DNA of 64,000 bases from positions 6,129 to 70,128 of the forward strand of contig CAINDO010000440.1 in the NCBI GenBank assembly GCA_903847385.1, read 5' to 3'. The notes under the pieces are model-generated. The model did not search any database. It was not told where the DNA came from and saw only the letters and a list, made by a program, of their open reading frames with translations. Position numbers and translations under genes: made by a program. Source of the stretch: an uncultured Myxococcales bacterium (GTDB lineage Bacteria > Myxococcota_A > Bradymonadia > UBA7976 > UBA1532). This document shows, piece after piece, positions 5,695 through 63,553 of this stretch. How positions within the stretch are numbered: position 1 is the stretch's first letter; the number at the start of each line of letters is the position of its first letter.

Positions 5695-8600
5695 ATGAAG
5701 TCATTCAAGCACAGCGCTCTCCTCGCCTTCTCGCTCGGCCTCGCCGCGACGGGGTGTTTCTCGGACGCCCCCGAGGGCCTCGCCCAGGCGGACGACGCGC
5801 ACACCACGGTCAAGTTCGACTTCCTGCACAAGCCGCTGCCGGAGATCCCGCTGCCGAACGACGTGGCCACGCGCTACGACCCGGACTCGGCCACGCTCCG
5901 CCGCGTGAACGCCTCGATGATCGCGCCGACCGCGCTCGAGCGCCGCACCCGCACGCTGCTGGACGGCCTGGACGGCTGGGGTCTGTTCCAGCCCATCACG
6001 GTGCCTTTCACGGGCCCGCTGGACATCCAGTCGATTCTCGACGCCCACCGCGACGCCGACTACGACTTCAGCGATGATGTCATCTATCTCATCAATATCA
6101 CTCGGGATTCTCCGGACTTCGGCAAACCCGTGGCCCTCGACCTGGGCAACGGCAACTACCCCGCCGGCACCGAGAGCCGCGAGGACTTCTGGCCGAACGA
6201 TCCGCGCGCCGGCACCATGTCCATCACGTTCGAGGAGTTCGACGAGGACGAGAACGGCAACGGCGAGCTCGACCCCGGCGAGGACACGGACTCCGACGGC
6301 GTGCTCGACCGGCCGAACTACCTGCCGGGAAAGAAGCCGGCCTGGGACGATCTCGCCGCCCGCGAGGACGCCCTCATGTCGTTCTACGAGCGCGAGACGA
6401 ACACGCTGATCGCCGTGCCCGTGGTGCCGTTGCGCGAGCGCACGACCTACGCCGTCGTGGTCACGAAACGCCTGCGGGACGCGGACGGCGACCCCGTCGG
6501 CTCGCCCTTCCCCTTCATCAATCACGCGTCTCAAACCGAGGCGCTCTCGGTGCTGCCCGAGGTCCTGCCCAACGGTCTGTCGCTGGACGACGTCGCCTTC
6601 GCGTTCAGCTACACCACGCAGACCACCAGCAGCGAGTGGCAGGCCGTGCGCGACGGCCTGTACGGCCACGGCGTGCAGAAACACCTGGCCTCGGAGTTCC
6701 CCGCCGAGATCACCTCGCTGGAGTTGGCCAAGGACGCCGCACGGTTCCCCAAGTCCACGCGGCTGTCCACGCTCTTCGCCGAGGAGTTCGACATCCCGTT
6801 TCGTCTGTTGAACACGGCCATCGGCGGCATCGATCCCAGCTCCGAGGCCATGACCCGGCTGATGGACGGCTACCAATACATCGACTACCTGGTGATGGGC
6901 AGCTTCGACTCGCCGCAGCTCTTCGACCGCGAGGACGCCGAGGGCAACCCCCTGCCCATGGACGCGCAGTCCTGGCCGACGGACCTGGACCGCGTGCCCG
7001 CCAAGGCCCGCGCCGAGAAGGTCTATTTCACGCTCGTCACGCCCCGGAAGGAGATCAGTTCTCGGAAAGATGGCAAACCCGCGCCGGTCGTCATCCTGGG
7101 TCACGGCCACGGCGGCAACCGCTTCACGGCGCTGAACTTCGGGCCCTACTTCGCGCGGCATGGCATCGCCGTGCTGGCCATCGACAACCCCGGCCATGGC
7201 ATCAGCATCGCCCCCGAAGACAAGGAGCAGGCCAAGACGATCCTGGGCGGCTTCGGCATCGGGCCGTTCATCGACTCGGTGTTCAAGGACCGCGCGCTGG
7301 ACATGAACTTCGACGGTCTGACCGACTCCGGCGGCGACTTCTGGACGTTCTATCTGTTTCACACGCGCGACAACGTGCGGCAGTCCGCGCTCGATTACAT
7401 GCAGTTGATTCGGATCCTGCGCGGCTTCGACGGCAAACACCGCTGGGACATCGACGTGAACGGCGACGGCAAGAACGACCTGGCCGGCGACTTCGACGGC
7501 GACGGCGAGGTCGACGTCGGCGGCAGCGGCGCCATCACCATGACCGGCGGCTCCCTCGGCGGCATCATGGCCATGCTCATGGGCGACCTGGAGCCGGAGC
7601 TCGACGCCGTCGCCTCCATCATCGGCGGCGGCAGCCTGGGGACCATGTCGCGGCGTTCGATCAACGGCGCCGTGCGGCGCGCCATCGTGCTGCGCGCGTT
7701 CGGCCCGCTGTTTCTGGCCACGCCGACCGACGACGGCAAGACACGCGTCGAGACGATCGTGCCCGATCTGGACGGCACGCCGGCCACCCGCACGCTGGCC
7801 ACGATCGCGAAGATCCCCGCCGGCGCGACGATGGTGGTGGAGAACCTGGCCAACGGCGAGCTCGGCTGCGGCCTGCTCTCGGCGGACGCCCTCGGCCGCG
7901 CCCCCGTGGCCGCGGATCTGGGCGATCCGCTCCGCATCCGGTTCTACGCGGGCGACATCGTGCGCGGCAAAGACTGCGCGCTCGCCGACGGCGCCCGGGA
8001 GATCGCCGAAGTCTCGACCTTCGGCGAAGAGACCGTGTTTCAGGACCAGGCGTACGGCGCCGGCGATCCGCTCGTGGCGCTGGCCGAGGGCATGGGGCTG
8101 CAGCGCTCGTCGCCGGACTTCCGTCGGTTCGCCGGCCTGGGGCCGCTGGTCATGGACCGCGCGGACCCCGCCGTGTACGCGCGGCATCTGTTGAACGAGC
8201 CGCTGACCTACCCGGGCACCGGCCAGAAGACGGGCGCGCACGCGCTGGTCACCACCGCCATCGGCGACCTGAACGTGCCCGTGGACTCGGGCATGACCTT
8301 CGCCCGCGCCGCCGGCATCCTCGACTACCTGAAGCCCAACCCGGCCTTCGGCGTGCCGGACAACCAGGTGCTCATCGACCACCACGTGCCCGAGGGCATG
8401 GACGAGCTGAAGCGATACACCGATCCGGACGGCGTGGGTGTGTTGCTCGATCCCAACGACTTCAGCGGTGACACCGATCTGTGGGCCGGCCGCGTGCCGC
8501 GCCTGGACCCGCCGCTCCGCTCCGGCTTCGACACGAAGGACGCCCTCGGCGGCCGTTCTGCGGCGATCTTCGCCTACGGCAGCCCCCAGGGCATGCACGG

Positions 8601-8835
8601 CTTCGACCCCCCCGGCGAGATGATCGACGCCGCCCGCGAGCAGTGTGATGCCGCCTGCACCACCGGCGACTGCGACTGCAACACACTGGAAATCTTCGAC
8701 GTGGGCAGCTTCCACTTCAACCTGATCGCCGAGTACCTGCTCTCCGGGGGCACAACGCTCAACCCCGACCCGTGTCACAGCCGCAACGACTGCCCGGCGA
8801 TCCCGGCCCCGCCGGCCCGGCGGACGGGGCTTTGA
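5695..8835 (+). CDS. Large secreted lipoprotein with an alpha/beta-hydrolase-like core and Asp-rich calcium-binding-type repeats
   Basis: Lipobox LGLAATGC. Motifs VVILGHGHGGNRF and GGSLGG are a GxSxG-type nucleophile elbow. DVNGDGKNDLAGDFDGDGEVDVGG resembles TSP3 or EF-hand repeats. Confidence 0.6.
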   Translation: MKSFKHSALLAFSLGLAATGCFSDAPEGLAQADDAHTTVKFDFLHKPLPEIPLPNDVATRYDPDSATLRRVNASMIAPTALERRTRTLLDGLDGWGLFQPITVPFTGPLDIQSILDAHRDADYDFSDDVIYLINITRDSPDFGKPVALDLGNGNYPAGTESREDFWPNDPRAGTMSITFEEFDEDENGNGELDPGEDTDSDGVLDRPNYLPGKKPAWDDLAAREDALMSFYERETNTLIAVPVVPLRERTTYAVVVTKRLRDADGDPVGSPFPFINHASQTEALSVLPEVLPNGLSLDDVAFAFSYTTQTTSSEWQAVRDGLYGHGVQKHLASEFPAEITSLELAKDAARFPKSTRLSTLFAEEFDIPFRLLNTAIGGIDPSSEAMTRLMDGYQYIDYLVMGSFDSPQLFDREDAEGNPLPMDAQSWPTDLDRVPAKARAEKVYFTLVTPRKEISSRKDGKPAPVVILGHGHGGNRFTALNFGPYFARHGIAVLAIDNPGHGISIAPEDKEQAKTILGGFGIGPFIDSVFKDRALDMNFDGLTDSGGDFWTFYLFHTRDNVRQSALDYMQLIRILRGFDGKHRWDIDVNGDGKNDLAGDFDGDGEVDVGGSGAITMTGGSLGGIMAMLMGDLEPELDAVASIIGGGSLGTMSRRSINGAVRRAIVLRAFGPLFLATPTDDGKTRVETIVPDLDGTPATRTLATIAKIPAGATMVVENLANGELGCGLLSADALGRAPVAADLGDPLRIRFYAGDIVRGKDCALADGAREIAEVSTFGEETVFQDQAYGAGDPLVALAEGMGLQRSSPDFRRFAGLGPLVMDRADPAVYARHLLNEPLTYPGTGQKTGAHALVTTAIGDLNVPVDSGMTFARAAGILDYLKPNPAFGVPDNQVLIDHHVPEGMDELKRYTDPDGVGVLLDPNDFSGDTDLWAGRVPRLDPPLRSGFDTKDALGGRSAAIFAYGSPQGMHGFDPPGEMIDAAREQCDAACTTGDCDCNTLEIFDVGSFHFNLIAEYLLSGGTTLNPDPCHSRNDCPAIPAPPARRTGL

Positions 8836-8867
8836 TGCGGGGGGGGCGTTGACCGGGAATCGACGCG

Positions 8868-11800
8868 TCAGCGCCGTCGGGTCTCCCGTTCGGCCGATGC
8901 GCGGTAGTTCTCGGCCATCATGGTGCAGAGCCTCGCGGACTCTGGCCACTGCGTTCCGAGGCGCCGGGCGCTGTTCTCCAGCATCTCGGCGAGGATTCGC
9001 TCATGGTACGCGGGGTCGTGCGGGTCGATCTCACGAACGCCCTGGCGGTTGAAATGCGCACGTGCGATCGCCCGTCGGAGCCGCTCGGAGTCGTGCCGCT
9101 TCAGAATTTCGCGCGCCACCGGTGGCGGCCACAGGTCGACCTCGCCCAGGTCCGAGGCGAGGTTGCCGAGGATGTGACCGAGGAAGTCGGCACACCCGAC
9201 GGCGTGGCCCGTCGCGCGACACTGGGCGACGAACGCGTCCGCCCAATTGGGGAGCGTCTCGGGCAGGAACTTCAGATTCAGGCCGAACACCACTCTTTGC
9301 CCGATCCGGCCCAGGTTCGACTCGGGTTGGAGTCTCGTTTCCTCGCCGTCGGGCGTGAACGTCTGCCGGACCACGTCGGCGGCGAAGGCGGGGGAGGTCT
9401 CGAGTGCGCGTCGAATGCGCTCGGGAAGTGGCCCAAAGTCATCGCGAAGGGGCAAGAACTTCAGTTCGAGCGCGACGAGTTCTTCGACCTGAGCCCCGGT
9501 CGCCTCGAGCACGTCGAGGCCAAGCGCAACGACGTCCGAAAACCGGATATCGGGCCGGGTGGGCGTCTCCACGGCCGACAGCGCGGCACGCAGGTGCGTC
9601 GCCTGGGCGCGAACACTCGGCAGGCGTTCCGGCCAGTCCGCGGGCAACGATTCGAGAATCTGGCGCGCGCCACCCCACGCGAGCAACCCGCTCAGGAGAA
9701 TCGTTGCGAGATTGGCGTCCTCCGACCATGGATCGAAGGGCGCGGCCTCCCACCAGGCCGCCTGAATCGGCTCGGGACACGTCGCGAGCCAGTGCAAGAC
9801 AGCCTCCTCGGCGGGCAGCTCTCGCAGCAACGGCTGAGCGACTTCGATGGCACCCCGTCGAAGCAGCTCGTCGAGCCGGTGCAGCCGAGCCTCCACGTCG
9901 AGACGCCTGAAGTACCCAGCGCGGAGCCCGCCGGCGACCGGACCGCGGTCGAGGTCCCAGATCTCGCGGGCGACGCAGTCCGACCACTCCGCGTGTGCAG
10001 CGATGGCCCACCCGAGGCGCGCCGCGCTGTACTCATCGAATTCGGTGAGTTCTGCCGCGTGAAAGAGACAGTCCCCACGCCGGAGGGCGGCGTTCACGAC
10101 CTCCACCAGGCTCGCGTCCGCCCGGCGCAACTTCTCCGCCTCGAAGTCTCGGTACGCCGGAAACTCCCGAATCGACATGCCGTCGAGGTGGTCCGGCTGG
10201 GAGCCGAACATCCACGCGATGTCGCCGAGCCGCACCTCGTCCGGCGCCGGCTGGAGTGCGCCGTAGGCTTGCATCAGAGCTTCGACGGCGTCGCCCTTGA
10301 ACGACCACCATGCGTCGCGAAAGGTCTTGGCGTCGGCGAGATGTTTCCGAAGGGCCCCGCGAACTCGGCGTCGACCGGCCGGTTCGAGTGAGCCCTCTCG
10401 CGATGCTCGCCCCAAGGCATCGAGGCATTGTGTCAGCACATCCTGGCCGAGGATGGGAGAGAGCGCATGCACCAGCGAGGGCCAGACACTGAAGTCGCGC
10501 TCGGCCGTCTTCACGAGTCGATGCACGAGCCACTCGAGGTCACTGTCGGTCATCCGCCCTTGGCCCGGCGCACCCTCGGCCGGGGCGTCGTTGCGACCCT
10601 CCATGAACTCCGGTGGGCCCAAGCCCATCCACATCGCGCCCGAGGGCCGTGGGAGAAGGCCGAGCAGAATCGCGGCGAGCGCCCGGGTCGATGCCCCCCG
10701 CTCGTCCGCCGCGTCGAGCGCCCGCCGGCAACACTCGCCGCCGGTCGCGGAGCTTGCCCATCGAGTCCGCAGGATCGCGTGGAGCGAGGACAACGGACTG
10801 TTGCCGAGCCCGCCGTGCGGCCCGTCGTCTGCGTCTGCGAGCATCAACAGTCGATCGACCACACGCACGAACAGTGCCGGTCCCCACGGGAGCCGTTCCG
10901 GTGCCCACGAGAGCCGTTCCAGCGCCCAGAGCAGTGGAAGTCGGTGTCTCTTCAACGCCTCCGGGTCGAGTGCGTCGAGAAATGCCCCCGGCGCGGTCTC
11001 GGCCAGTGTCTCCAGACACGCCGCGGATGGGGCGGCGAGCGCCCGGCGCACGAGGGTGCCGGCGAGCTGTTCCGCGCGCGTCTTGTCACCCTGCGCGGCG
11101 AACGGGGACCAGCGGATCAGGGCAAGGGCCCGGACGAGGGCGTCGGCCTCGCTGCGCTCGATCGGCTCGGCGTTCTCGGCGACGAGCAGCGCTTCGGCGG
11201 CGTCGAGAATGCGGTGCGCGTTCCCGTTCAACCAGTGCCGTTCGGTCTTTCGCCAGGTGTCGACCGGCGTGCGCCAGCCCCACATCGTACCCCGATCTTC
11301 GAGCGCAATCGGTTCGGCATGGGCAAGGGCCTCGGTTGCGTCCACGACCCGCTCGACCTTCGCTCCAGCGAGGCGGCGAAGCACCACGCCGAGCGGCGCA
11401 CCCGATTTCGGAGACGCGCCGAGGACGAGCGCGGGCCAGACCTCGGCCAGGATCTCGCGCCTGGCCCACGACGCCGATGCGCTCAGGAGCCCTCGCAGCG
11501 CCAGAAACCCGTTGCCGGCGGCCCGCGCTGCCCTGTGAATCGCATCTTGTGGCCAGCGCTCGGCCTCCAGCAGGTCGTGCAATCGCGGCGGAGCGAGGAA
11601 CCGCAAGTGGATCACGGCCGGATCATCGGGCGGGCTTTGTGGCACGCTGGCGTCCGGGCGGCTCCATTCGGTGGATCGAATCACGACATGCGGAGCACGT
11701 GCCGGCAACCGCAGGCGGCCCTCGGGCGTGTCGTCGATGAGAATCAGCCGCTCCGGTGACGACTGGGCGGCGTCGAACGCGGTCCTCGTCGAGATGACGA

Positions 11801-12881
11801 GGGTACGATGGCGAAGCATGGCGAGGGAACCCACCGCATGAGCGGCGAACGCGACGCCCTCGTCCCTGTGCGAAGCCTGAACTTCGACCGAGTGAATCGC
11901 CGGTCGCATTACGGCGCCGAGCAGCGCCGCGACTTCAGCGCTTCGGCCCGCGGCGACTGCGGCCAGTGGCAGGCTCAGCGCCCGAGCGTCGTCGAAGACC
12001 GACTGATCTTCGTCGAAGACCGACTGGTCTTGCCATCGCTTTTCGAAGTCGTCCAGCGAAGAGAGACCGTCGTCCGCGAAGGGTGACCCGATCAACTTCG
12101 AGAACCACCGGCGCACGACCGGGGCCGCATCCAGCCAATGCAGGAGCTGCGGCCGGTCGATGACCCGAACAGCCCGGAAGCCGTGCTTTCGACACTGTGC
12201 GCTGGCCCAGTCCGCCGAGGTCGGCGGCGCGGACCCCCAGAGGTGGGGCGTCACGAACACGACGGTCACATCCGCTGGCAAACGCCCTTCCGCGGCGCAC
12301 TTCGTTTGCGCCGCCGCCAGATCCCGGCCCGCCTTGCTCCGTGCATCGGACTGAACGGAGAACTCCCAGAACGACGGACCCACCGGGACGAAGGGTCCGC
12401 CGAGCCCGCAGGTCACCGCCCCATCCCAACCCTTCCGCTCGGCGTCGTCGCGCAGGAGAAAACGCGGTTGGTCGAGGTCGCGCCACGGGACGGTCGCAAG
12501 TATGAGTCGCCAGACCAGCTCGGGCAACTGCCTCCGCGATTCGAGCGTCGCCGCCCAGCGGTCCAGGTCCATCCGGTTCGGGTCCCAGACACCCCCCGCC
12601 AGCGACCCGATGCGGCCGGTCGCGTCGCCCGCGCTCGGGTCCGGGTCGTCGAGGCGAACCAGACTGGCCACGGACCGGCGCAGCCCGATCGCGAGGCGCT
12701 CGAGGTCTGGACCGGTCAGCGAGGTCTGCTCGCCCGAGAGCAGCCGCGAGATCGTCGACTGCGAGAGGCCGATTCGCTGCGCCCAGGCCCGCTGCGAGAG
12801 GTTTTCAGAAGCGAGACGTTCGGCTATGATCCCGCCGACATCTCGAATCACCGAGATTCTCTCACCAGAGCGCCTGGCCAT
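8868..12881 (-). CDS. 1337-aa protein with an N-terminal XRE-family helix-turn-helix and a large uncharacterised helical body; no P-loop found
   Basis: The N-terminus (..NLSQRAWAQRIGLSQSTISRLLSGEQ) is a typical XRE HTH. The long ORF has non-Arg-biased composition. I found no Walker A motif. It sits divergently to an AbiE-like pair. Confidence 0.65.
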   Translation of the reverse strand: MARRSGERISVIRDVGGIIAERLASENLSQRAWAQRIGLSQSTISRLLSGEQTSLTGPDLERLAIGLRRSVASLVRLDDPDPSAGDATGRIGSLAGGVWDPNRMDLDRWAATLESRRQLPELVWRLILATVPWRDLDQPRFLLRDDAERKGWDGAVTCGLGGPFVPVGPSFWEFSVQSDARSKAGRDLAAAQTKCAAEGRLPADVTVVFVTPHLWGSAPPTSADWASAQCRKHGFRAVRVIDRPQLLHWLDAAPVVRRWFSKLIGSPFADDGLSSLDDFEKRWQDQSVFDEDQSVFDDARALSLPLAAVAAGRSAEVAALLGAVMRPAIHSVEVQASHRDEGVAFAAHAVGSLAMLRHRTLVISTRTAFDAAQSSPERLILIDDTPEGRLRLPARAPHVVIRSTEWSRPDASVPQSPPDDPAVIHLRFLAPPRLHDLLEAERWPQDAIHRAARAAGNGFLALRGLLSASASWARREILAEVWPALVLGASPKSGAPLGVVLRRLAGAKVERVVDATEALAHAEPIALEDRGTMWGWRTPVDTWRKTERHWLNGNAHRILDAAEALLVAENAEPIERSEADALVRALALIRWSPFAAQGDKTRAEQLAGTLVRRALAAPSAACLETLAETAPGAFLDALDPEALKRHRLPLLWALERLSWAPERLPWGPALFVRVVDRLLMLADADDGPHGGLGNSPLSSLHAILRTRWASSATGGECCRRALDAADERGASTRALAAILLGLLPRPSGAMWMGLGPPEFMEGRNDAPAEGAPGQGRMTDSDLEWLVHRLVKTAERDFSVWPSLVHALSPILGQDVLTQCLDALGRASREGSLEPAGRRRVRGALRKHLADAKTFRDAWWSFKGDAVEALMQAYGALQPAPDEVRLGDIAWMFGSQPDHLDGMSIREFPAYRDFEAEKLRRADASLVEVVNAALRRGDCLFHAAELTEFDEYSAARLGWAIAAHAEWSDCVAREIWDLDRGPVAGGLRAGYFRRLDVEARLHRLDELLRRGAIEVAQPLLRELPAEEAVLHWLATCPEPIQAAWWEAAPFDPWSEDANLATILLSGLLAWGGARQILESLPADWPERLPSVRAQATHLRAALSAVETPTRPDIRFSDVVALGLDVLEATGAQVEELVALELKFLPLRDDFGPLPERIRRALETSPAFAADVVRQTFTPDGEETRLQPESNLGRIGQRVVFGLNLKFLPETLPNWADAFVAQCRATGHAVGCADFLGHILGNLASDLGEVDLWPPPVAREILKRHDSERLRRAIARAHFNRQGVREIDPHDPAYHERILAEMLENSARRLGTQWPESARLCTMMAENYRASAERETRRR

Positions 12882-12917
12882 GATTCATTCCAGATTCAAT
12901 GCGAATGAATGAATCAT
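12880..12917. promoter_or_regulatory. AT-rich divergent operator: perfect 11-bp inverted repeat ATGATTCATTC / GAATGAATCAT with a 16-bp spacer
   Basis: The arms lie at 12880-12890 and 12907-12917. Local GC is about 30% in a genome of about 70%. Both divergent start codons lie in or next to the arms. Confidence 0.55.
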
Positions 12918-13472
12918 CTCGAATTCACCGCGCGGAGTCAAATCGTGCTGCAGCCCGTGGACCTCGTGGTCGCCCTGAAGCTTTGCTGCCACGCAGACGG
13001 CCAGCCCGTCTCGCGCGCCGAGAGCGCGGCGTCGCTCGGGATCTCGCGCCGCCGCTTCGACGATGCGGTGACGCGCCTGGTGGCGTCCCGCCTGGCCAGC
13101 GCCGAGAGCCTTCGGCCGCGCGCGCACTCGCTGATGGAGTTCCTCTGCGCGGGTGTCCCCTATTGGCTCCCCGCCGAGGTCGGTGCGATCGCTCGGGGTA
13201 TGCCCGCCGCCACATCCGGTCCGGGGCTCGAGGGACTCGGGCCGATTCAACTCGCCGAAGTGGGTGAATGGGTCTGGCCCGGCGCCCCGGCCCCGTTCGA
13301 TCGGCATGTCGGCAAGGCGCTCCAACCCATCGACCCCATCGTGCCGACGGCCGCGGCGCGCGATCAGCGGCTCTACGAACTTCTGAGCCTGCTCGACACC
13401 CTGCGGGTCGGTCATGTCCGTGAGCGCGACGCCGCGCGCGCCGGCCTGTCGCGACGCCTGGGGCTGACGTGA
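12909..13472 (+). CDS. HTH-containing small protein, AbiEi-like putative antitoxin or regulator
   Basis: A winged-HTH-like segment (VSRAESAASLGISRRRFDDAVTRLVASRL). Its stop overlaps the downstream GTG start as GTGA. Confidence 0.5.
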   Translation: MNHLEFTARSQIVLQPVDLVVALKLCCHADGQPVSRAESAASLGISRRRFDDAVTRLVASRLASAESLRPRAHSLMEFLCAGVPYWLPAEVGAIARGMPAATSGPGLEGLGPIQLAEVGEWVWPGAPAPFDRHVGKALQPIDPIVPTAAARDQRLYELLSLLDTLRVGHVRERDAARAGLSRRLGLT

Positions 13473-14158
13473 GTCGCGTGCCGATCAGCCGCGCGGTCTT
13501 CGCGACTGTCGCACGAGTGCTCCAGGCAGGCGGTGTGCGGGTCGTCTTCGTCGGCGGCGCGACCGTCCCACTGCGGGTCGATCTCGTCGCCGGCAACGCT
13601 CGGGTGACCGACGACATCGATTGCGTGGTCGATGCGGTGAGCTACGCCGAGTATGCCGCGCTGCTGGACCGGCTCCGTGCCCTGGGCTTCAGCGACGCCC
13701 CGGAAGAGGGCGTCACCTGCCGGATGCGTCTGGGCAGTGTCCTGATGGACTTCATGCCCCGCGCGAACCTCCCGCTGGCGCCGAGCAGTCCGTTCTTCGA
13801 GCGCATCTGGATGGACCCCGACAGCCTCGAGGTCGAGCCGGGCTTCACGATTCCCGTGGCCCGCATCGGCGATCTGTTCGCGACGAAGGTCGAGGCATTT
13901 CTGGACCGCGGTGCTGCCGATCCTTACGCGAGCAAGGACCTGGAAGACCTCGTGACGCTCCTGGACGGGAGAGCCGGCCTCCTCGACGAACTCGACGCAG
14001 CGAGGGCAGAGGTTCGAGTCGCCGCCGCGCGCTGGGCCGCCTGGATGAGCGCGCGCAGGGACGGTGAGGATCTCGTCGCGGCGTGGTTCTGGGGGAGAGA
14101 CGCAGAACGCCGCTCCGCAACGGTCTGGGCGTTGGTCAAACGGCTCGCCGCGCGCTGA
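13469..14158 (+). CDS. Nucleotidyltransferase-fold protein, AbiEii/DUF1814-like putative toxin
   Basis: N-terminal VVFVGGATVPLRV..ARVTDDIDCVVD matches the Gly-rich loop plus R-x-T-x-D-[IL]-D nucleotidyltransferase signature of AbiEii-family toxins, as I recall it. About 229 aa. The GTG start overlaps the upstream stop. Confidence 0.5.
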   Translation: MSRVPISRAVFATVARVLQAGGVRVVFVGGATVPLRVDLVAGNARVTDDIDCVVDAVSYAEYAALLDRLRALGFSDAPEEGVTCRMRLGSVLMDFMPRANLPLAPSSPFFERIWMDPDSLEVEPGFTIPVARIGDLFATKVEAFLDRGAADPYASKDLEDLVTLLDGRAGLLDELDAARAEVRVAAARWAAWMSARRDGEDLVAAWFWGRDAERRSATVWALVKRLAAR

Positions 14159-52784: not shown

Positions 52785-56786
<4,002 letters not shown>

Positions 56787-56914
56787 CGTGCGACTCCCCG
56801 GATTCCCCCGAACCCGCAAACCCCGAATATCCGCCCGCGCGCACCACGACGCAATCTTACCCGCGCGTCGAATCACGGCGTGCGCGCCGCGAATTCGCGT
56901 GCGATCATGGGCGC

Positions 56915-61444: not shown

Positions 61445-63553
61445 TCAGGGGCGCGCCCGGTAGGTGACCTGAATGTCGCCGGTGTCGCCGTGGTAGCCCT
61501 CGACCACGGCGAAGTACATGTGCCCCGCCGTGGCGTCGAACTGGATGGACGCGTAGATCGAGCCGCCGGCGTCGTCGACGCACGGCCGCCCCGCGCCGAC
61601 CTGAGCGCCGCAGTCGTCGTAGATGCTGAGCACGGTGTCGGCGCGGCTCCCCGTCGTCTCGATGCGCGCCGGGCCGTCGTGATCGGGCACGAAGGCGAAC
61701 ACGCGCTCGGCGCCGTGGGGGCCGTTGCAACCGTCCCCCGTGGGCACGGCGTCCGGCGTGGCGGCGTCCAGCGTGCCCATCGCAGGCACGCCGGGCTGGA
61801 GGGCCACCGCGTCCGCGCAGAGGCCGGCCGGGATGGGATCACAGGACGTGGCAAAACAGGCTTCCCCCGCGGGGCAGTCGGGCGCGCCGGGGCCGCAGGC
61901 GAGCACGGGCGCCGCCTCGAAGGCCAGGTTCAAGGTGAAGGGCCCGCTCTCGCCGGAGTAGCCCTCGACGACCACGTAGTAGTCCGCGCCGGCCACGACC
62001 TCGGCGGCCACGCGCGACCACTGGCCGCCGGCCCCGTTGTCGTCGTTGCAGGCGAGCTCGTTCGCGGCCGCCGCGCAGTCCGAGCGGAGCGAGAGCACCG
62101 TGTCGAAGCCCGAGCCCTCGGTGGTGAAGGTCGCCGTACCGGCCACCGCGGGCCGGTAGTGCACGATGGTCTCCGGGGCGCTGCCCGAGTCCACGCAGGC
62201 CACGGACGTCGCGTCCGCGCCGGTGTCCGTGTCGCCCGCGAGCACACCGCCCGCGGGCATCTCGAGCGGCTCGGCGCAGGTGCCCACCGCGTCCACGGGC
62301 GGGGGCGGCGGGGGCGGCGGGGGCGGCGGATCGACGGGCCCGCCGCCGCCTCCGCCCGGGACCGACTCGTCCACGAGCAGCGTGAAGGTCCCGCCCGTAC
62401 CCCACGTGTCGACGATGATCGCGTAGGTCTGGCCGGCGCGCGCCGTGAAGGTCAGCTCGGCGTCCGAGTTCAGGAAGTCGTTCTCGGTGTCGTCGTTGCA
62501 GGCCAGCTCGGTGCCCGGGTCCAGGCAGTCCGTGCGCACGTAAAGGACCGTATTCACGAACAAATCGCCCATGGCGTAGAGCGTGACCTCGGTGTCGGCG
62601 TCCCGGGTGAGCGTGAAGGCCGACTCGCCGCCGCCCGTGGGGAAGAACCCACAGCTCCCCTCGTCGCCGTTGCCGCCGGTCGCGCCGGGGTAGTCACCCG
62701 GGCCGGGGATGTCCTGGGCCGAGCCGCAAGCCGCGCCCGGCGGGGCCAGGGGCGCGTTGAAGTCCAACCCGCCGCCCCCGCCACCGCCGCCCCCGGGATC
62801 GAGGGGGTCGCCGCCGGTGCAGTGGCCGGTGTCGTCACAGGTCTGGCCCGGCGCACAGTCGGCGCTGCGCTGGCAGCACCGCTCGTTGGGGAAGTCTTCG
62901 TCGATGACACCGTCGCAGTCGTTGTCCAGGCCGTCGCAAATCTCGGGCACGCCGCCGGAGCCCGGCGGCAACTGGCACTCCACGCCGCTGCCGTCGGCCT
63001 TGCACACGAACACACCCTCGCCCTGGCAGTCGCCGCCGGCCTGGCAGGCGGTGCCCACGCTGGGGAAGTTCTCGTCGATCTCGCCGTCGCAGTCGTCGTC
63101 GCGGTCGTTGCAGGTCTCCGGCGGCGGGCTGCAGTCGCTCCACATGCCGTCCCGGCAGACCTGCAGGCCGCCGACGCAGCCCTCGGCCTGGCAGGCCTGC
63201 CGCTCGCCCTCGGTGCAGGCGCCCATGGCCGGGGGTTCCGTGGGCGGCGCCGCCGCATCCCCCATCCACGGAACCGCGGCGTCCGTGTCCGCCGCCGTGC
63301 CGCCCGTACCCGGCTGCGTGCCACCGCTGCCGGGCGTGCCGCCGATGGCCTCGGGGTCGATGGTGTACCCGCCCTGATCGCGGTCCGCCGGGGGCGCGCC
63401 GAAGCCGTAGTCCGCCTCCACCAGGGCCTTGGCGGCGTCCTCGCCACACGCCGGCAGGAGCGAGACGCCGCCGAGCAGCGCCCACGTCAGCAGGGCGTTC
63501 GAGGGGGACGGGCGGCGAAGACGGACGGAGCGGCCGGAGCGGCGATCAATCAT
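61445..63553 (-). CDS. Secreted lipoprotein with MopE-type repeats, a poly-Gly/Pro linker and three PPC-like beta domains
   Basis: Lipobox LLPAC. ETCNDRDDDCDGEIDENF and ICDGLDNDCDGVIDEDF. GGGGGGGG and PPPPPPPPPPP linkers. Confidence 0.65.
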   Translation of the reverse strand: MIDRRSGRSVRLRRPSPSNALLTWALLGGVSLLPACGEDAAKALVEADYGFGAPPADRDQGGYTIDPEAIGGTPGSGGTQPGTGGTAADTDAAVPWMGDAAAPPTEPPAMGACTEGERQACQAEGCVGGLQVCRDGMWSDCSPPPETCNDRDDDCDGEIDENFPSVGTACQAGGDCQGEGVFVCKADGSGVECQLPPGSGGVPEICDGLDNDCDGVIDEDFPNERCCQRSADCAPGQTCDDTGHCTGGDPLDPGGGGGGGGGLDFNAPLAPPGAACGSAQDIPGPGDYPGATGGNGDEGSCGFFPTGGGESAFTLTRDADTEVTLYAMGDLFVNTVLYVRTDCLDPGTELACNDDTENDFLNSDAELTFTARAGQTYAIIVDTWGTGGTFTLLVDESVPGGGGGGPVDPPPPPPPPPPPVDAVGTCAEPLEMPAGGVLAGDTDTGADATSVACVDSGSAPETIVHYRPAVAGTATFTTEGSGFDTVLSLRSDCAAAANELACNDDNGAGGQWSRVAAEVVAGADYYVVVEGYSGESGPFTLNLAFEAAPVLACGPGAPDCPAGEACFATSCDPIPAGLCADAVALQPGVPAMGTLDAATPDAVPTGDGCNGPHGAERVFAFVPDHDGPARIETTGSRADTVLSIYDDCGAQVGAGRPCVDDAGGSIYASIQFDATAGHMYFAVVEGYHGDTGDIQVTYRARP

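What the first reader, a model, noticed from the sequence alone, without database searches (positions are those of the whole stretch)
8868..12881. 1337-aa XRE-HTH protein with no recognisable enzymatic motif, divergent from a toxin-antitoxin-like pair
The N-terminal 60 aa form a classic XRE helix-turn-helix. The remaining 1270 aa are helical-looking, and I found no Walker A/B, kinase or nuclease motifs. Its size, its HTH and its position next to an AbiE-like pair resemble the single-gene sensor/effector giants of defence islands. It could equally be a large regulator or scaffold. The gene carries an internal 21-bp tandem duplication (QSVFDEDQSVFDD).
Basis: partly seen in the sequence, partly recalled or inferred. 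Interest (0 to 1): 0.6.

Follow-up and report, generated by a model that had tools for sequence, protein, structure and literature searches.

The report
HTH-fused nuclease–solenoid candidate phage sensor
The 1337-aa gene is real and belongs to a very large, unnamed family of giant single-gene proteins (a nuclease-like head on a long helical "sensor" body) that sit in phage-defence islands and mobile elements, so it is most likely a self-regulated anti-phage sensor-nuclease, although nobody has tested this.

Summary
The ORF (8868-12881, minus strand, 1337 aa), its XRE helix-turn-helix, the divergent AbiEii pair and the 21-bp duplication are all confirmed. The claim that there is no enzymatic motif and that the rest is helical is not. 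Residues ~100-275 model confidently (pLDDT 90) as a restriction-endonuclease-like (PD-(D/E)xK) fold, with D153, E173, K183 and D187 invariant in 90 relatives. A small alpha/beta domain without Walker motifs follows, then a winged helix and a ~790-aa alpha-solenoid.

An exhaustive HMMER scan finds 9,356 clusters of relatives, about 1,260 aa each; 31% of 160 sampled members carry an N-terminal extension of HTH size. None is covered by Pfam, NCBIfam or PADLOC beyond the HTH. In about 18 independent loci the gene stands alone, with no conserved partner. It lies beside R-M, CBASS, AbiE, RES-Xre, Fic, retron-like, transposase or recombinase genes, on plasmids, and in an E. coli P2-like prophage. Its G+C is lower than its flanks. 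Related proteins keep the solenoid module but swap or lose the N-terminal head.

The nearest known system is Avs8/PD-lambda-4, but only through weak, collinear HMM hits. The family is not GAPS6b.

Best reading: an Avs/DSR2-like pattern-recognition nuclease with a fused autorepressor. Function is inferred only.

The parts
8868..12881 (-). Whole ORF, 1337 aa plus stop codon
   Evidence: GC3 is 0.81 against 0.93-0.97 in flanking genes. dN/dS is 0.26 against the 89%-identical orthologue in L001.
12666..12824 (-). XRE/Cro-C1 helix-turn-helix, aa 20-72
   Evidence: Pfam HTH_3 and HTH_31 are above their cut-offs. HTHs of other family members best match the R-M 'Control_protein' and capH models of PADLOC.
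12057..12584 (-). Restriction-endonuclease-like (PD-(D/E)xK-like) domain, aa ~100-275; candidate catalytic residues D153, E173, K183, D187
   Evidence: The AF2 model of aa 95-300 has pLDDT 89.7 and pTM 0.84, with an a-bbb-a-b-a-b order. The named Foldseek hits are mostly nucleases: Card1, EcoT38I, Avs4, BstEII, Can2, Mus81, HamA, LmuA; viral restriction endonuclease, Mrr and endonuclease I. All are weak (E 6e-4 to 0.1). D/E/K/D are invariant in 90 sequences.
11989..12031 (-). 21-bp in-frame tandem duplication (QSVFDED x2) in the inter-domain linker
   Evidence: TRF. It is absent from P0001 and P0002. pLDDT is low at this position.
11604..11969 (-). Small alpha/beta domain, aa ~305-426, in the position of a STAND nucleotide-binding domain but without Walker A/B. 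Family motifs: AGR(D/E)xE helix, (S/T)xxEAxAF, GHHV.
   Evidence: AF2 model of aa 290-1337: pLDDT 86, strands at model residues 42-47, 71-74, 91-94, 110-116, 134-136. No GxxxxGK[ST] at this position in 160 members.
11247..11591 (-). Helical bundle plus winged-helix domain, aa ~431-545
   Evidence: Secondary structure of the AF2 model. Homologous E. coli proteins that lack the head start at this domain (hhalign).
8871..11246 (-). Alpha-solenoid, aa ~546-1337; presumed ligand-binding sensor
   Evidence: The AF2 model is all-helical here. Foldseek PDB hits are HEAT/ARM solenoids (CRM1, importins, CAND1), plus SAMD9 at rank 29; E 5e-5 to 8e-4, TM about 0.2.
10635..10952 (-). Most conserved helical segment (LLWALExLAWxP...NRPxxSL), aa 644-749. 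In other family members this region gives weak collinear hits to the PADLOC PD-Lambda-4_A (Avs8) model.
   Evidence: The target itself gives no such hit.
10877..10928 (-). Second 21-bp in-frame tandem duplication, inside the conserved segment
   Evidence: TRF. It appears as a 7-aa insert in the alignment, shared with P0001 only.
8871..9263 (-). Conserved C-terminal cap, aa ~1207-1337 (family motif WP...NxRG...GGxQERxLA...Y). Partly degenerate in the target: R1280Q and GG1290-91PA.
   Evidence: Conservation analysis of 160 members; alignments.
12880..12913 (.). Operator-like palindrome, ATGATTCATTC-N12-GAATGAATCAT, spanning both divergent start codons in the 27-bp AT-rich spacer
   Evidence: Read from the sequence. 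The core ATTCATTC/GAATGAAT is conserved in L001 and L002 while the flanks diverge.
12909..13472 (+). 187-aa wHTH-like protein; putative AbiEi-type antitoxin of the neighbouring module
   Evidence: It overlaps AbiEii by 4 bp. Pfam hits are only sub-threshold: HTH_29 at 0.009 and AbiEi_4 at 0.097.
13469..14158 (+). AbiEii nucleotidyltransferase toxin; neighbouring module that shares the low-GC3 islet
   Evidence: Pfam PF08843 at 2e-9; GC3 0.83. The arrangement is conserved only in the close relatives L001 and L002.

Best explanation
The gene encodes an HTH-fused member of a large, unnamed family of about 1,260-aa single-gene proteins that are carried by defence islands and mobile elements.

Shown:
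- The domain order is [XRE HTH] - restriction-endonuclease-like domain with an invariant D/E/K/D set - small alpha/beta domain lacking Walker motifs - helical bundle and winged helix - ~790-aa alpha-solenoid with a conserved C-terminal cap.
- The family moves horizontally and has no conserved partner gene.
- The winged-helix plus solenoid module recurs with other N-terminal heads.

Inferred mechanism:
- The solenoid acts as a pattern-recognition sensor that binds a phage or other invader protein.
- Binding relieves auto-inhibition, or drives oligomerisation through the alpha/beta and winged-helix 'switch'. This would happen without ATP hydrolysis.
- The N-terminal nuclease is thereby activated and degrades DNA, stopping the infection. 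This is how Avs proteins with Mrr/Cap4 heads work. DSR2 follows the same sensor-effector logic with a SIR2 head.
- The fused XRE HTH most likely represses the gene's own promoter through the palindrome over its start codon, keeping a potentially toxic nuclease at a low level.
- The adjacent AbiE pair is an independent module of the same 5.3-kb low-GC3 islet.
For: Family size and lack of annotation:
- 9,356 50%-identity cluster representatives at E<=1e-3 and 4,962 at E<=1e-30, nearly all matched end to end.
- No Pfam, NCBIfam or PADLOC family beyond the HTH.
- No sequence relative in the PDB.

Nuclease head:
- The AF2 model has pLDDT 89.7.
- The named fold hits are mostly PD-(D/E)xK nucleases, including the nuclease heads of Avs4, Card1, Can2, HamA and LmuA.
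- D153, E173, K183 and D187 are invariant in 90 sequences and kept in the target.
- dN/dS of this domain is 0.18.

Body:
- The AF2 model has pLDDT 86 and pTM 0.71: alpha/beta domain, winged helix and solenoid.

Modularity:
- E. coli EC96 (1180 aa) and S. baltica OS117 (1187 aa) share the ~890-aa winged-helix plus solenoid module (EC96: hhalign E 2e-126; OS117: tblastn over query residues 353-1246) but carry a different ~280-aa head.
- An E. coli P2-like prophage gene has the module alone (E 3e-97), preceded by a GapS6a-family small gene.

Context:
- AbiE (window, L001, L002); Fic (L004).
- SMODS + Cap17-like (CBASS-type genes), QueC, HTH-M78/PIN and a PLD-SNF2 helicase (L006).
- Resolvase (L007); RT + SLATT, a Shedu fragment and IS elements (L009).
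- RES-Xre x2, Abi, SIR2 and AbiEii (L011); Abi and SieB (L013).
- HTH/ImmA, a PDDEXK nuclease and DUF4238 (L017).
- SNF2-NOV_C helicase, DUF1156 and DUF499 (L018).
- R-M, KAP NTPase and DndB (L020); HTH-M78/DUF3368 (L021); XamI R-M (L022).
- 24 plasmids of very diverse phyla carry a relative.
- G+C is lower than the flanks in L003-L005 and in the window.

Link to Avs8:
- 7 of 38 members (plus 1 on a second PD-Lambda-4_A model) give weak (best 3.9e-5) hits to PD-Lambda-4_A. This is the only non-HTH PADLOC family hit by more than one member.
- The hits whose coordinates were listed are collinear and map to the same segment.
- Avs8A is an Mrr-nuclease/NTPase/repeat sensor of capsid protein (10.1101/2025.07.02.662641).
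- A natural Avs8 homologue without nucleotide-binding residues (KpAvs8) is described in 10.64898/2026.01.04.697583.

Autoregulation:
- The palindrome lies over the start codons and is conserved in orthologues.
- Other HTH-fused members also have palindromic motifs just upstream, shared between unrelated taxa.
Against: - No member has been tested, so the defence role rests on association and architecture.
- Structural matches of the head are weak (best PDB E 0.014, TM 0.36-0.45).
- The lysine is not in the canonical (D/E)xK position. It lies on the following helix.
- The alpha/beta domain could not be compared structurally on its own. Nothing shows that it derives from a P-loop domain, and no member has a Walker A at that position.
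- The target itself gives no PD-Lambda-4 hit.
- The target clade is the most divergent of 160 members. It keeps only 64% of the positions that are >=85% conserved in the family (median 94%). It has lost R191, R213, R1280 and the C-terminal GG, so its activity may be altered or lost.
- Three contexts (L003, L015, L016) show no recognisable defence neighbours.
- The palindrome could equally be the operator of the divergent AbiEi-like gene.
Confidence: 0.55

Rival explanations
1. It is a large signal-sensing transcription regulator. The XRE HTH binds DNA, and the rest of the protein senses a ligand and modulates repression, as in MalT/LAL-type giant regulators.
For: The HTH passes Pfam cut-offs. 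A palindrome overlaps the promoter region. Source databases call it a 'transcriptional regulator with XRE-family HTH domain'.
Against: 103 of 160 family members have no N-terminal extension and no detectable DNA-binding domain. The most conserved polar residues lie in a nuclease-like domain. There is no conserved regulated neighbour; every distant relative has different neighbours.
Confidence: 0.1
2. It is a selfish addiction or stabilisation module of mobile elements, in effect a fused antitoxin-toxin. The HigA-like HTH would restrain a toxic nuclease whose role is element maintenance or competition with other plasmids, not phage defence.
For: Some sources name members 'HigA family addiction module antitoxin'. 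The gene is frequent on plasmids next to ParB, IS elements and recombinases. It neighbours TA pairs.
Against: Most members lack the HTH 'antitoxin' part. An ~890-aa conserved winged-helix plus solenoid module is unnecessary for a simple TA system. The gene also occurs in chromosomal R-M/CBASS islands and in a P2-like prophage cargo position. This reading also overlaps largely with abortive-infection defence.
Confidence: 0.12
3. In this particular lineage the protein is a degenerating or re-purposed copy. Its sensor or nuclease no longer works as in the rest of the family, and it survives mainly as an HTH repressor of the shared promoter region with the AbiE pair.
For: It is the lowest of 160 members in retention of family-conserved positions (64% against a median of 94%). 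It has lost R191, R213, R1280 and the C-terminal GG, and has two recent in-frame 21-bp duplications, one inside the most conserved motif. It is linked to the AbiE pair only in this clade.
Against: dN/dS is 0.26 over the whole length and 0.18 in the nuclease-like domain, with no frameshift or stop codon in 4 kb. The D/E/K/D set is intact. AF2 models the target sequence itself with high confidence.
Confidence: 0.15
4. It is a housekeeping DNA-repair or recombination scaffold nuclease of the host.
For: It has a nuclease-like fold with Mus81/XPF-type structural neighbours, and HEAT-like solenoid hits include FANCI and DNA-PKcs-type proteins.
Against: Distribution is patchy and horizontally transferred: 14 of 5,426 E. 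coli genomes carry a relative, and there is none among the GTDB species representatives for the target clade. G+C is atypical. The contexts are mobile elements, and synteny is not conserved.
Confidence: 0.04

Closest known systems
Avs8 / PD-lambda-4 A (antiviral STAND; senses HK97-fold major capsid protein)
   Same: - Similar size: the PADLOC profile is 1283 positions against ~1260 aa for the family.
- Same domain order: N-terminal PD-(D/E)xK-type nuclease, a central alpha/beta 'switch' region, then a long helical repeat sensor.
- Avs8A alone suffices for defence.
- Weak hits of 7 of 38 family members (plus 1 on a second model) to the PD-Lambda-4_A model; those with listed coordinates are collinear.
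- A natural Avs8 homologue without nucleotide-binding residues (KpAvs8) is described in 10.64898/2026.01.04.697583.
   Different: - No Walker A/B in any of 160 members.
- The target itself does not hit the model.
- The head is not recognised as Mrr_cat by Pfam.
- There is no Avs8B-like partner.
- Many members carry a fused XRE HTH.
Avs1-4 / AVAST with Mrr or Cap4 nuclease heads
   Same: It works alike in outline: a nuclease effector plus a repeat sensor in one polypeptide, located in defence islands. Chains of the Avs4 structure (8dgf), which has an N-terminal nuclease head, are among the top structural neighbours of the target's head.
   Different: Avs proteins need an ATP-bound STAND NTPase for tetramerisation. 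This family lacks the motifs. Its solenoid resembles HEAT/ARM repeats more than TPR. There is no sequence similarity.
DSR2 (SIR2 head plus HEAT-like sensor that binds the phage tail tube)
   Same: It is an NTPase-free single-protein sensor-effector, with an enzymatic N-terminal head and a large helical sensor. This is the best analogy for how a sensor could work without ATP.
   Different: The head is SIR2 (an NADase), not a nuclease. No sequence or fold hit to DSR2 appeared in the top 50. DSR2 has no winged-helix or alpha/beta switch region.
GAPS6 (GMT-island anti-phage system 6, Vibrio)
   Same: A GapS6a-family small protein (NCBIfam NF047935, 3e-40) directly precedes a truncated member of this family (winged helix plus solenoid only) in E. 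coli, Buttiauxella and Photobacterium.
   Different: - Fragments of the validated GAPS6b, and the 1116-aa partner in V. coralliilyticus and Pantoea, show no similarity to the family.
- GAPS6b is described as TPR plus PINc.
- The window has no GapS6a-like gene in the operon position.
R-M controller (C) proteins and CapH-type XRE repressors of defence operons
   Same: HTHs of family members best match the PADLOC 'Control_protein' and capH models. A palindromic operator lies at the gene's own promoter.
   Different: Here the repressor domain is fused to the effector protein and is not a separate gene.

Membership tests
XRE/Cro-C1 helix-turn-helix (Pfam HTH_3 / HTH_31) | Profile match above the curated cut-off | tested here: met
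   HTH_31 scores 31 bits (cut-off 27) and HTH_3 scores 29.9 bits (cut-off 23), at aa 20-72.
PD-(D/E)xK (restriction-endonuclease-like) nuclease superfamily | Core alpha-beta-beta-beta-alpha-beta fold | tested here: met
   The AF2 model (pLDDT 89.7) shows the element order H-E-E-E-H-E-H-E. Named structural neighbours are mostly PD-(D/E)xK nucleases, but the scores are weak: PDB E 0.014-0.1, BFVD 6e-4 to 2e-2.
PD-(D/E)xK (restriction-endonuclease-like) nuclease superfamily | Catalytic D ... (D/E)xK motif on strands 2 and 3 | tested here: inconclusive
   D153 at the start of strand 2 and E173 at the end of strand 3 are invariant. The residue two positions after E173 is S or G, not K. An invariant K183 and D187 lie on the next helix. 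This could be a relocated-lysine variant, but that is unproven.
PD-(D/E)xK (restriction-endonuclease-like) nuclease superfamily | Sequence-profile match to a known nuclease family (e.g. Mrr_cat, Cap4) | tested here: not met
   No Pfam, NCBIfam or PADLOC hit in aa 95-300, for the target or for 45 other members.
PD-(D/E)xK (restriction-endonuclease-like) nuclease superfamily | Metal-dependent nuclease activity | not testable with these tools
   This requires biochemistry.
Avs / STAND NTPase pattern-recognition receptors | P-loop NTPase with Walker A (GxxxxGK[ST]) and Walker B | tested here: not met
   No Walker A at the beta1-alpha1 loop in 160 members. That position reads (S/T)xxEAxAF. The hhhhDD stretch is not conserved.
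Avs / STAND NTPase pattern-recognition receptors | NBD-HD1-WHD module between effector and sensor | tested here: inconclusive
Avs / STAND NTPase pattern-recognition receptors | C-terminal repeat sensor and N-terminal effector in one protein | tested here: met
Avs8 / PD-lambda-4 A | Match to the PADLOC PD-Lambda-4_A profile | tested here: inconclusive
   The target gives no hit. Seven of 38 members (plus 1 on a second PD-Lambda-4_A model) and 2 further members match at 4e-5 to 1e-2. Every match with listed coordinates falls within profile positions ~560-726. This is far below a membership-level score.
GAPS6 | Adjacent GapS6a small protein | tested here: not met
   The gene upstream of the target is a divergent 187-aa wHTH protein, 27 bp away. 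No ORF lies in the operon position. The 187-aa protein was not scanned against NCBIfam.
GAPS6 | Homology to GAPS6b | tested here: not met
   hhalign of the family profile against two 133-aa fragments of the validated GAPS6b gives probability 0.1%. tblastx gives no hit.
AbiE type IV toxin-antitoxin (neighbouring pair, not the target) | AbiEii nucleotidyltransferase plus an upstream AbiEi wHTH antitoxin in one operon | tested here: inconclusive
   AbiEii is met (PF08843, 2e-9). The 187-aa partner overlaps it by 4 bp but gives only sub-threshold hits: HTH_29 at 0.009 and AbiEi_4 at 0.097.

The most novel reading that the evidence does not exclude
The family is a widespread class of NTPase-independent intracellular pattern-recognition receptors that has not been described. 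It would consist of a conserved ~890-aa winged-helix plus HEAT-like sensor module with a conserved C-terminal cap. This module would be combined with interchangeable heads: a new PD-(D/E)xK-like nuclease, an unrelated ~280-aa head, or a separate GapS6a adaptor. It would often be fused to its own XRE autorepressor. Such a receptor would signal without any nucleotide switch. That would make it either a NOD-less parallel to Avs/NLR immunity or a lineage of Avs8 that dispensed with ATP altogether.
Probability: 0.3. Interest if true: 0.75.

Novelty: new variant of a known kind. Interest (0 to 1): 0.6.

Why it matters
If the reading is right, thousands of genes now labelled 'hypothetical' or 'HTH transcriptional regulator' across Proteobacteria, Bacteroidota, Actinomycetota, Cyanobacteria and this high-G+C organism are immune sensors.

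They would show how a sensor-nuclease can be switched on without the ATP-driven oligomerisation that defines Avs and NLR proteins. They would also give a clean example of effector-head swapping on a fixed sensor module.

The E. coli relatives make the idea directly testable with existing coliphage panels and phage-gene libraries. These relatives are a P2-like prophage cargo gene pair and an IS-flanked single gene.

For annotation, the result warns that a 60-aa HTH has been naming a 1,300-aa protein.

Tried and rejected
Protein searches:
- The word-indexed search found only 8-9 relatives and wrongly suggested a rare family. The exhaustive HMMER scan corrected this.
- Scans of GTDB species genomes with the target and with the flanking 1046-aa gene found nothing. 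The organism and an 'empty site' could therefore not be identified.

Structure searches:
- PDB sequence searches with 9- and 38-sequence profiles gave only HTH or noise hits.
- The Foldseek search of the 1048-aa model was swamped by generic solenoids.

GAPS6b membership was considered after finding a GapS6a gene next to an E. coli relative. It was rejected:
- the Vibrio/Pantoea partner is unrelated to the family;
- fragments of the validated GAPS6b recovered from the paper's supplement are also unrelated.

Other checks:
- No Avs8A sequence could be obtained, so the Avs8 link rests on PADLOC profile hits only.
- The different head of the E. coli EC96 variant gave no PDB sequence hit. Its nuclease-like motif (DDLIV...GQIK) is an impression by eye only.
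- No direct repeats or att-like sites flank the 8868-14158 islet.
- Literature searches for accession numbers of family members returned nothing.
- A functional link between the giant gene and the AbiE pair was rejected, because the pairing occurs only in the >=85%-identical relatives.

Full report
**1. The observation**

The ORF at 8868-12881 on the minus strand is real: 1337 codons from an ATG. The window has 72% G+C and many long shadow ORFs, so coding potential was checked by codon-position G+C.
- The ORF shows the expected pattern (0.74/0.53/0.81) along its whole length.
- Its GC3 (0.81) is clearly below that of the genes on its left (0.93-0.97).
- It shares this lower GC3 with the two genes on its right, at 12909-13472 and 13469-14158 (0.82-0.83).

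Pfam finds HTH_31 and HTH_3 at residues 20-72, both above their curated cut-offs, and nothing else. PADLOC and NCBIfam also see only the HTH. The divergent pair is a 187-aa wHTH-like protein and an AbiEii toxin (PF08843, 2e-9) that overlaps it by 4 bp.

The 21-bp duplication at 11989-12031 is found by TRF. It is a 7-aa insert absent from the two close orthologues. A second 21-bp in-frame duplication lies at 10877-10928.

**2. Family size**

The word-indexed protein search returned only 8-9 relatives: two at 85-89% identity and six or seven at about 23% that align end to end. This was misleading. A profile of residues 100-1267 was scanned exhaustively against 1.84 billion cluster representatives.
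- It found 9,356 proteins at E<=1e-3 and 4,962 at E<=1e-30.
- The best 150 all matched over essentially the whole profile.
- Typical members are about 1,260 aa.
- Of 160 sampled members, 103 have no N-terminal extension, 49 (31%) have a 71-140-aa extension, and 6 have a longer one. Where tested, the 71-140-aa extension is an XRE, MerR or other HTH.
- Sources call these proteins 'hypothetical protein', 'helix-turn-helix transcriptional regulator' or 'HigA family antitoxin'.
- No Pfam, NCBIfam or PADLOC family covers the body, in the target or in 45 other members.
- Profiles of the family find nothing in the PDB by sequence.

**3. Anatomy**

The protein was modelled in two pieces, with alignments of 90 and 91 family members.

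Residues 95-300 (pLDDT 89.7, pTM 0.84):
- The element order is helix, three strands, helix, strand, helix, strand. This is the core order of restriction-endonuclease-like (PD-(D/E)xK) nucleases.
- Foldseek scores are weak (best PDB E 0.014). However, the named neighbours are mostly nucleases of that fold: Card1, EcoT38I, Avs4 (whose N-terminal head is a nuclease), BstEII, Can2, EcoO109I, Mus81, HamA, SgrAI and LmuA.
- In the viral library the named hits include 'restriction endonuclease', 'Mrr domain-containing protein' and 'endodeoxyribonuclease I'.
- In 90 aligned sequences the only invariant residues of this domain are D153, E173, K183 and D187, in target numbering.
- D153 and E173 sit at the canonical positions, the start of strand 2 and the end of strand 3. 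K183 and D187 are on the next helix, so the motif is not the textbook (D/E)xK.

Residues 290-1337 (pLDDT 86, pTM 0.71):
- a five-stranded alpha/beta domain, ~305-426;
- a helical bundle, 431-466;
- a winged helix, 475-536;
- an uninterrupted alpha-solenoid to the C-terminus.
- Structural neighbours of the solenoid are generic HEAT/ARM proteins at low TM-score, plus SAMD9 at rank 29.

The alpha/beta domain begins with the family motif AGR(D/E)xE...L, followed by a strand. This recalls the entry into a STAND or ORC-type NTPase. Where the P-loop would be, however, all 160 members read (S/T)xxEAxAF, and no Walker A or conserved Walker B exists.

The most conserved parts of the solenoid are two:
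- a segment at 644-749 (LLWALExLAWxP...NRPxxSL);
- a C-terminal cap (WP...NxRG...GGxQERxLA).

**4. Modularity**

Two proteins share the last ~890 residues with the family, from the winged helix onward, but carry an unrelated ~280-aa head:
- a 1187-aa protein on a Shewanella baltica plasmid (tblastn over query residues 353-1246);
- an 1180-aa protein in an IS-flanked E. coli island (hhalign E 2e-126).

In E. coli E110019 a 930-aa protein consists of this module alone (hhalign E 3e-97).
- A 106-aa protein precedes it by 5 bp and is a clear NCBIfam GapS6a (3e-40).
- The pair lies inside a P2-like prophage, between ogr and the tail gene annotated VgrG/Pvc8.
- The same pair occurs on Buttiauxella and Photobacterium plasmids.

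A fixed sensor-like module with interchangeable heads is the pattern seen in known defence sensor-effector proteins. That comparison rests on general knowledge of Avs, CBASS and Thoeris effectors.

**5. Context**

No gene is consistently found next to the family gene.

| Locus | Neighbouring genes |
|---|---|
| Window, L001, L002 | AbiEii pair |
| L004 | Fic/DUF4172 gene, divergent |
| L006 | SMODS + Cap17-like (CBASS-type genes), QueC, HTH-M78 + PIN/DUF3368, PLD-SNF2 helicase |
| L007 | serine resolvase |
| L009 (R. tropici plasmid) | IS elements, group II intron, RT + SLATT, Shedu fragment |
| L010 | IS3 and ParB |
| L011 | two RES-Xre pairs, an Abi protein, SIR2, AbiEii |
| L013 | Abi and SieB |
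| L017 | HTH + ImmA/IrrE, a PDDEXK nuclease, DUF4238 |
| L018 | SNF2-NOV_C helicase + DUF1156 + DUF499 |
| L020 | transposases, an Eco57I-type methylase, BsuBI/PstI endonuclease, KAP NTPase, DndB |
| L021 | HTH-M78 + DUF3368 |
| L022 | XamI-type R-M system ending 8 bp upstream |
| L005 | the gene and three small ORFs interrupt sufB-sufD |
| L003 | a decayed GH88 paralogue |

- L003, L015 and L016 show no recognisable defence neighbours.
- In L003-L005 and in the window the gene has lower G+C than its flanks.
- Relatives occur on 24 plasmids from Alpha-, Beta- and Gammaproteobacteria, Bacteroidota and Actinomycetota.
- They occur in only 14 of 5,426 complete E. coli genomes and in one phage record.

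This is the distribution of an accessory, horizontally moving, stand-alone defence or conflict gene. It is not that of a core regulator. The AbiE pairing is limited to the closest relatives, so the pair is a neighbour in the same 5.3-kb low-GC3 islet and not a partner. No flanking direct repeats mark the islet.

**6. The HTH and its likely operator**

The two divergent start codons are 27 bp apart, in a strikingly AT-rich spacer. A perfect 11-bp inverted repeat, ATGATTCATTC-N12-GAATGAATCAT, covers both. Its core ATTCATTC/GAATGAAT is conserved in the orthologous loci while the adjacent sequence has diverged.

Other HTH-fused members also have palindromic motifs directly upstream, and these are shared between unrelated hosts:
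- TGTGTnGCGTTACACGnTAC in a Shewanella plasmid and in a 70%-G+C metagenome contig;
- TTGACGTCATA in R. tropici and in another metagenome contig.

The HTHs of members best match PADLOC's R-M 'Control_protein' and capH models. The inference is that the fused HTH is an autorepressor, as C-proteins and CapH are for their systems. The palindrome in the window could instead serve the AbiEi-like protein. This was not resolved.

**7. State of the target copy**

Against its 89%-identical orthologue, dN/dS is 0.26 overall and 0.18 in the nuclease-like domain. There are no frameshifts, so the gene is under purifying selection.

Yet this clade is the most divergent of the 160 members.
- It keeps 64% of the positions that are >=85% conserved in the family, against a median of 94%.
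- It has lost R191, R213, R1280 and the C-terminal GG.
- The D/E/K/D set is intact.

**8. Comparison with known systems**

The only non-HTH PADLOC family hit by more than one member is PD-Lambda-4_A.
- Seven of 38 members hit it, plus one on a second PD-Lambda-4_A model and two further members scanned separately. The best E-value is 3.9e-5.
- Every hit with listed coordinates falls within profile positions ~560-726. Two were mapped onto the target and correspond to residues 644-749.
- The target itself gives no hit.

PD-lambda-4 is now called Avs8.
- Avs8A has an Mrr-family nuclease head, a P-loop NTPase and a repeat sensor.
- It binds HK97-fold capsid protein and then degrades DNA (10.1101/2025.07.02.662641).
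- A natural homologue, KpAvs8, lacks the nucleotide-binding residues (10.64898/2026.01.04.697583).

The family therefore works most like an Avs8-type sensor-nuclease and may be distantly related to it. It fails the defining STAND feature (Walker motifs: tested, not met), and no Avs8A sequence could be obtained for a direct test.

GAPS6 membership was considered and rejected.
- The 1116-aa partner of GapS6a-like genes in Vibrio coralliilyticus and Pantoea is unrelated to the family.
- Two 133-aa fragments of the validated GAPS6b, recovered from the paper's supplement, are also unrelated.
- GapS6a-type small proteins thus accompany at least three unrelated large proteins.

DSR2 is the best functional analogy for an NTPase-free sensor-effector, but it is not related in sequence or fold.

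**9. Verdict**

What is shown:
- the domain architecture;
- a large, unannotated family;
- horizontal mobility and defence-island or mobile-element context;
- modular heads;
- purifying selection.

What is inferred:
- nuclease activity;
- ligand sensing by the solenoid;
- ATP-independent activation;
- autorepression by the HTH.

I rate it a new variant of a known kind (single-protein sensor-nuclease). Confidence in the overall explanation is 0.55 and interest is 0.6. The interest comes mainly from three things: the family is huge, it is invisible to current annotation and defence-finder libraries, and it has E. coli members that make it directly testable.

Noticed in passing
window 10877-10928: A second in-frame 21-bp tandem duplication (2.1 copies, 91% match). 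It inserts 7 aa into the family's most conserved helical motif (LLWALERLSWAPE[RLPWGPAL]F). It is present in the 89% orthologue P0001, and absent from P0002 and all distant members.
   Followed up: partly
window 12880-12913: A perfect 11-bp inverted repeat (ATGATTCATTC / GAATGAATCAT) in a 27-bp AT-rich spacer covers the start codons of both divergent genes. This implies overlapping, face-to-face promoters or leaderless transcripts. The core is conserved in L001 and L002.
   Followed up: partly
L004 ~9940-9965 and L010 ~95-120; L007 ~2880-2895 and L009 ~6665-6680: HTH-fused family members from unrelated hosts share near-identical upstream motifs: TGTGTnGCGTTACACGnTAC in one pair of loci and TTGACGTCATA in the other. 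These look like operators that travel with the gene.
   Followed up: partly
L024 8675-11793; L012 4549-7643; L026 6001-9811; L027 6001-9685: GapS6a-family small proteins precede at least three unrelated large partners. These are the validated Vibrio GAPS6b, a 1116-aa protein in V. coralliilyticus and Pantoea, and a 922-930-aa truncated member of the present family in E. coli and Buttiauxella. GapS6a may be a generic adaptor or regulator.
   Followed up: partly
L005 8758-16528: A family member plus three small or unknown ORFs lie between sufB and sufD of an actinobacterial-type suf operon. The inserted stretch has lower G+C.
   Followed up: no
P0084 residues 1290-1422: One family member carries a C-terminal AIG2/GGACT (gamma-glutamyl cyclotransferase-like) domain fused after the conserved cap.
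   Followed up: no
L006 4634-6193; L021 7879-9484; L017 4932-5826: An HTH-Peptidase_M78 (ImmA/IrrE) gene with a PIN/DUF3368 partner lies beside the family gene in two unrelated loci. A split HTH + ImmA/IrrE pair lies beside it in a third. This could be a recurrent regulatory or TA companion.
   Followed up: no
L013 4128-5000; L025 7546-8385: The alternative ~280-aa head of the S. baltica OS117 and E. coli EC96 variants begins NPFSTGGGGxxFE...DDLIV...GQIK. By eye this looks like another D...QxK nuclease. It has no Pfam, PADLOC or PDB sequence hit.
   Followed up: partly
window 8826-8857: A 17-bp G-rich tandem repeat (1.9 copies) overlaps the last bases of the convergent 1046-aa gene (ends 8835) and fills most of the 32-bp gap before the target's stop codon (8868). 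It is possibly a shared terminator region.
   Followed up: no
window 52785-56876 and 61445-63553: Large proteins with Cu-binding MopE-type repeats, together with PPC and Ricin-lectin secreted proteins, suggest a myxobacterium-like host. No relative of the flanking genes exists among the GTDB species representatives.
   Followed up: partly
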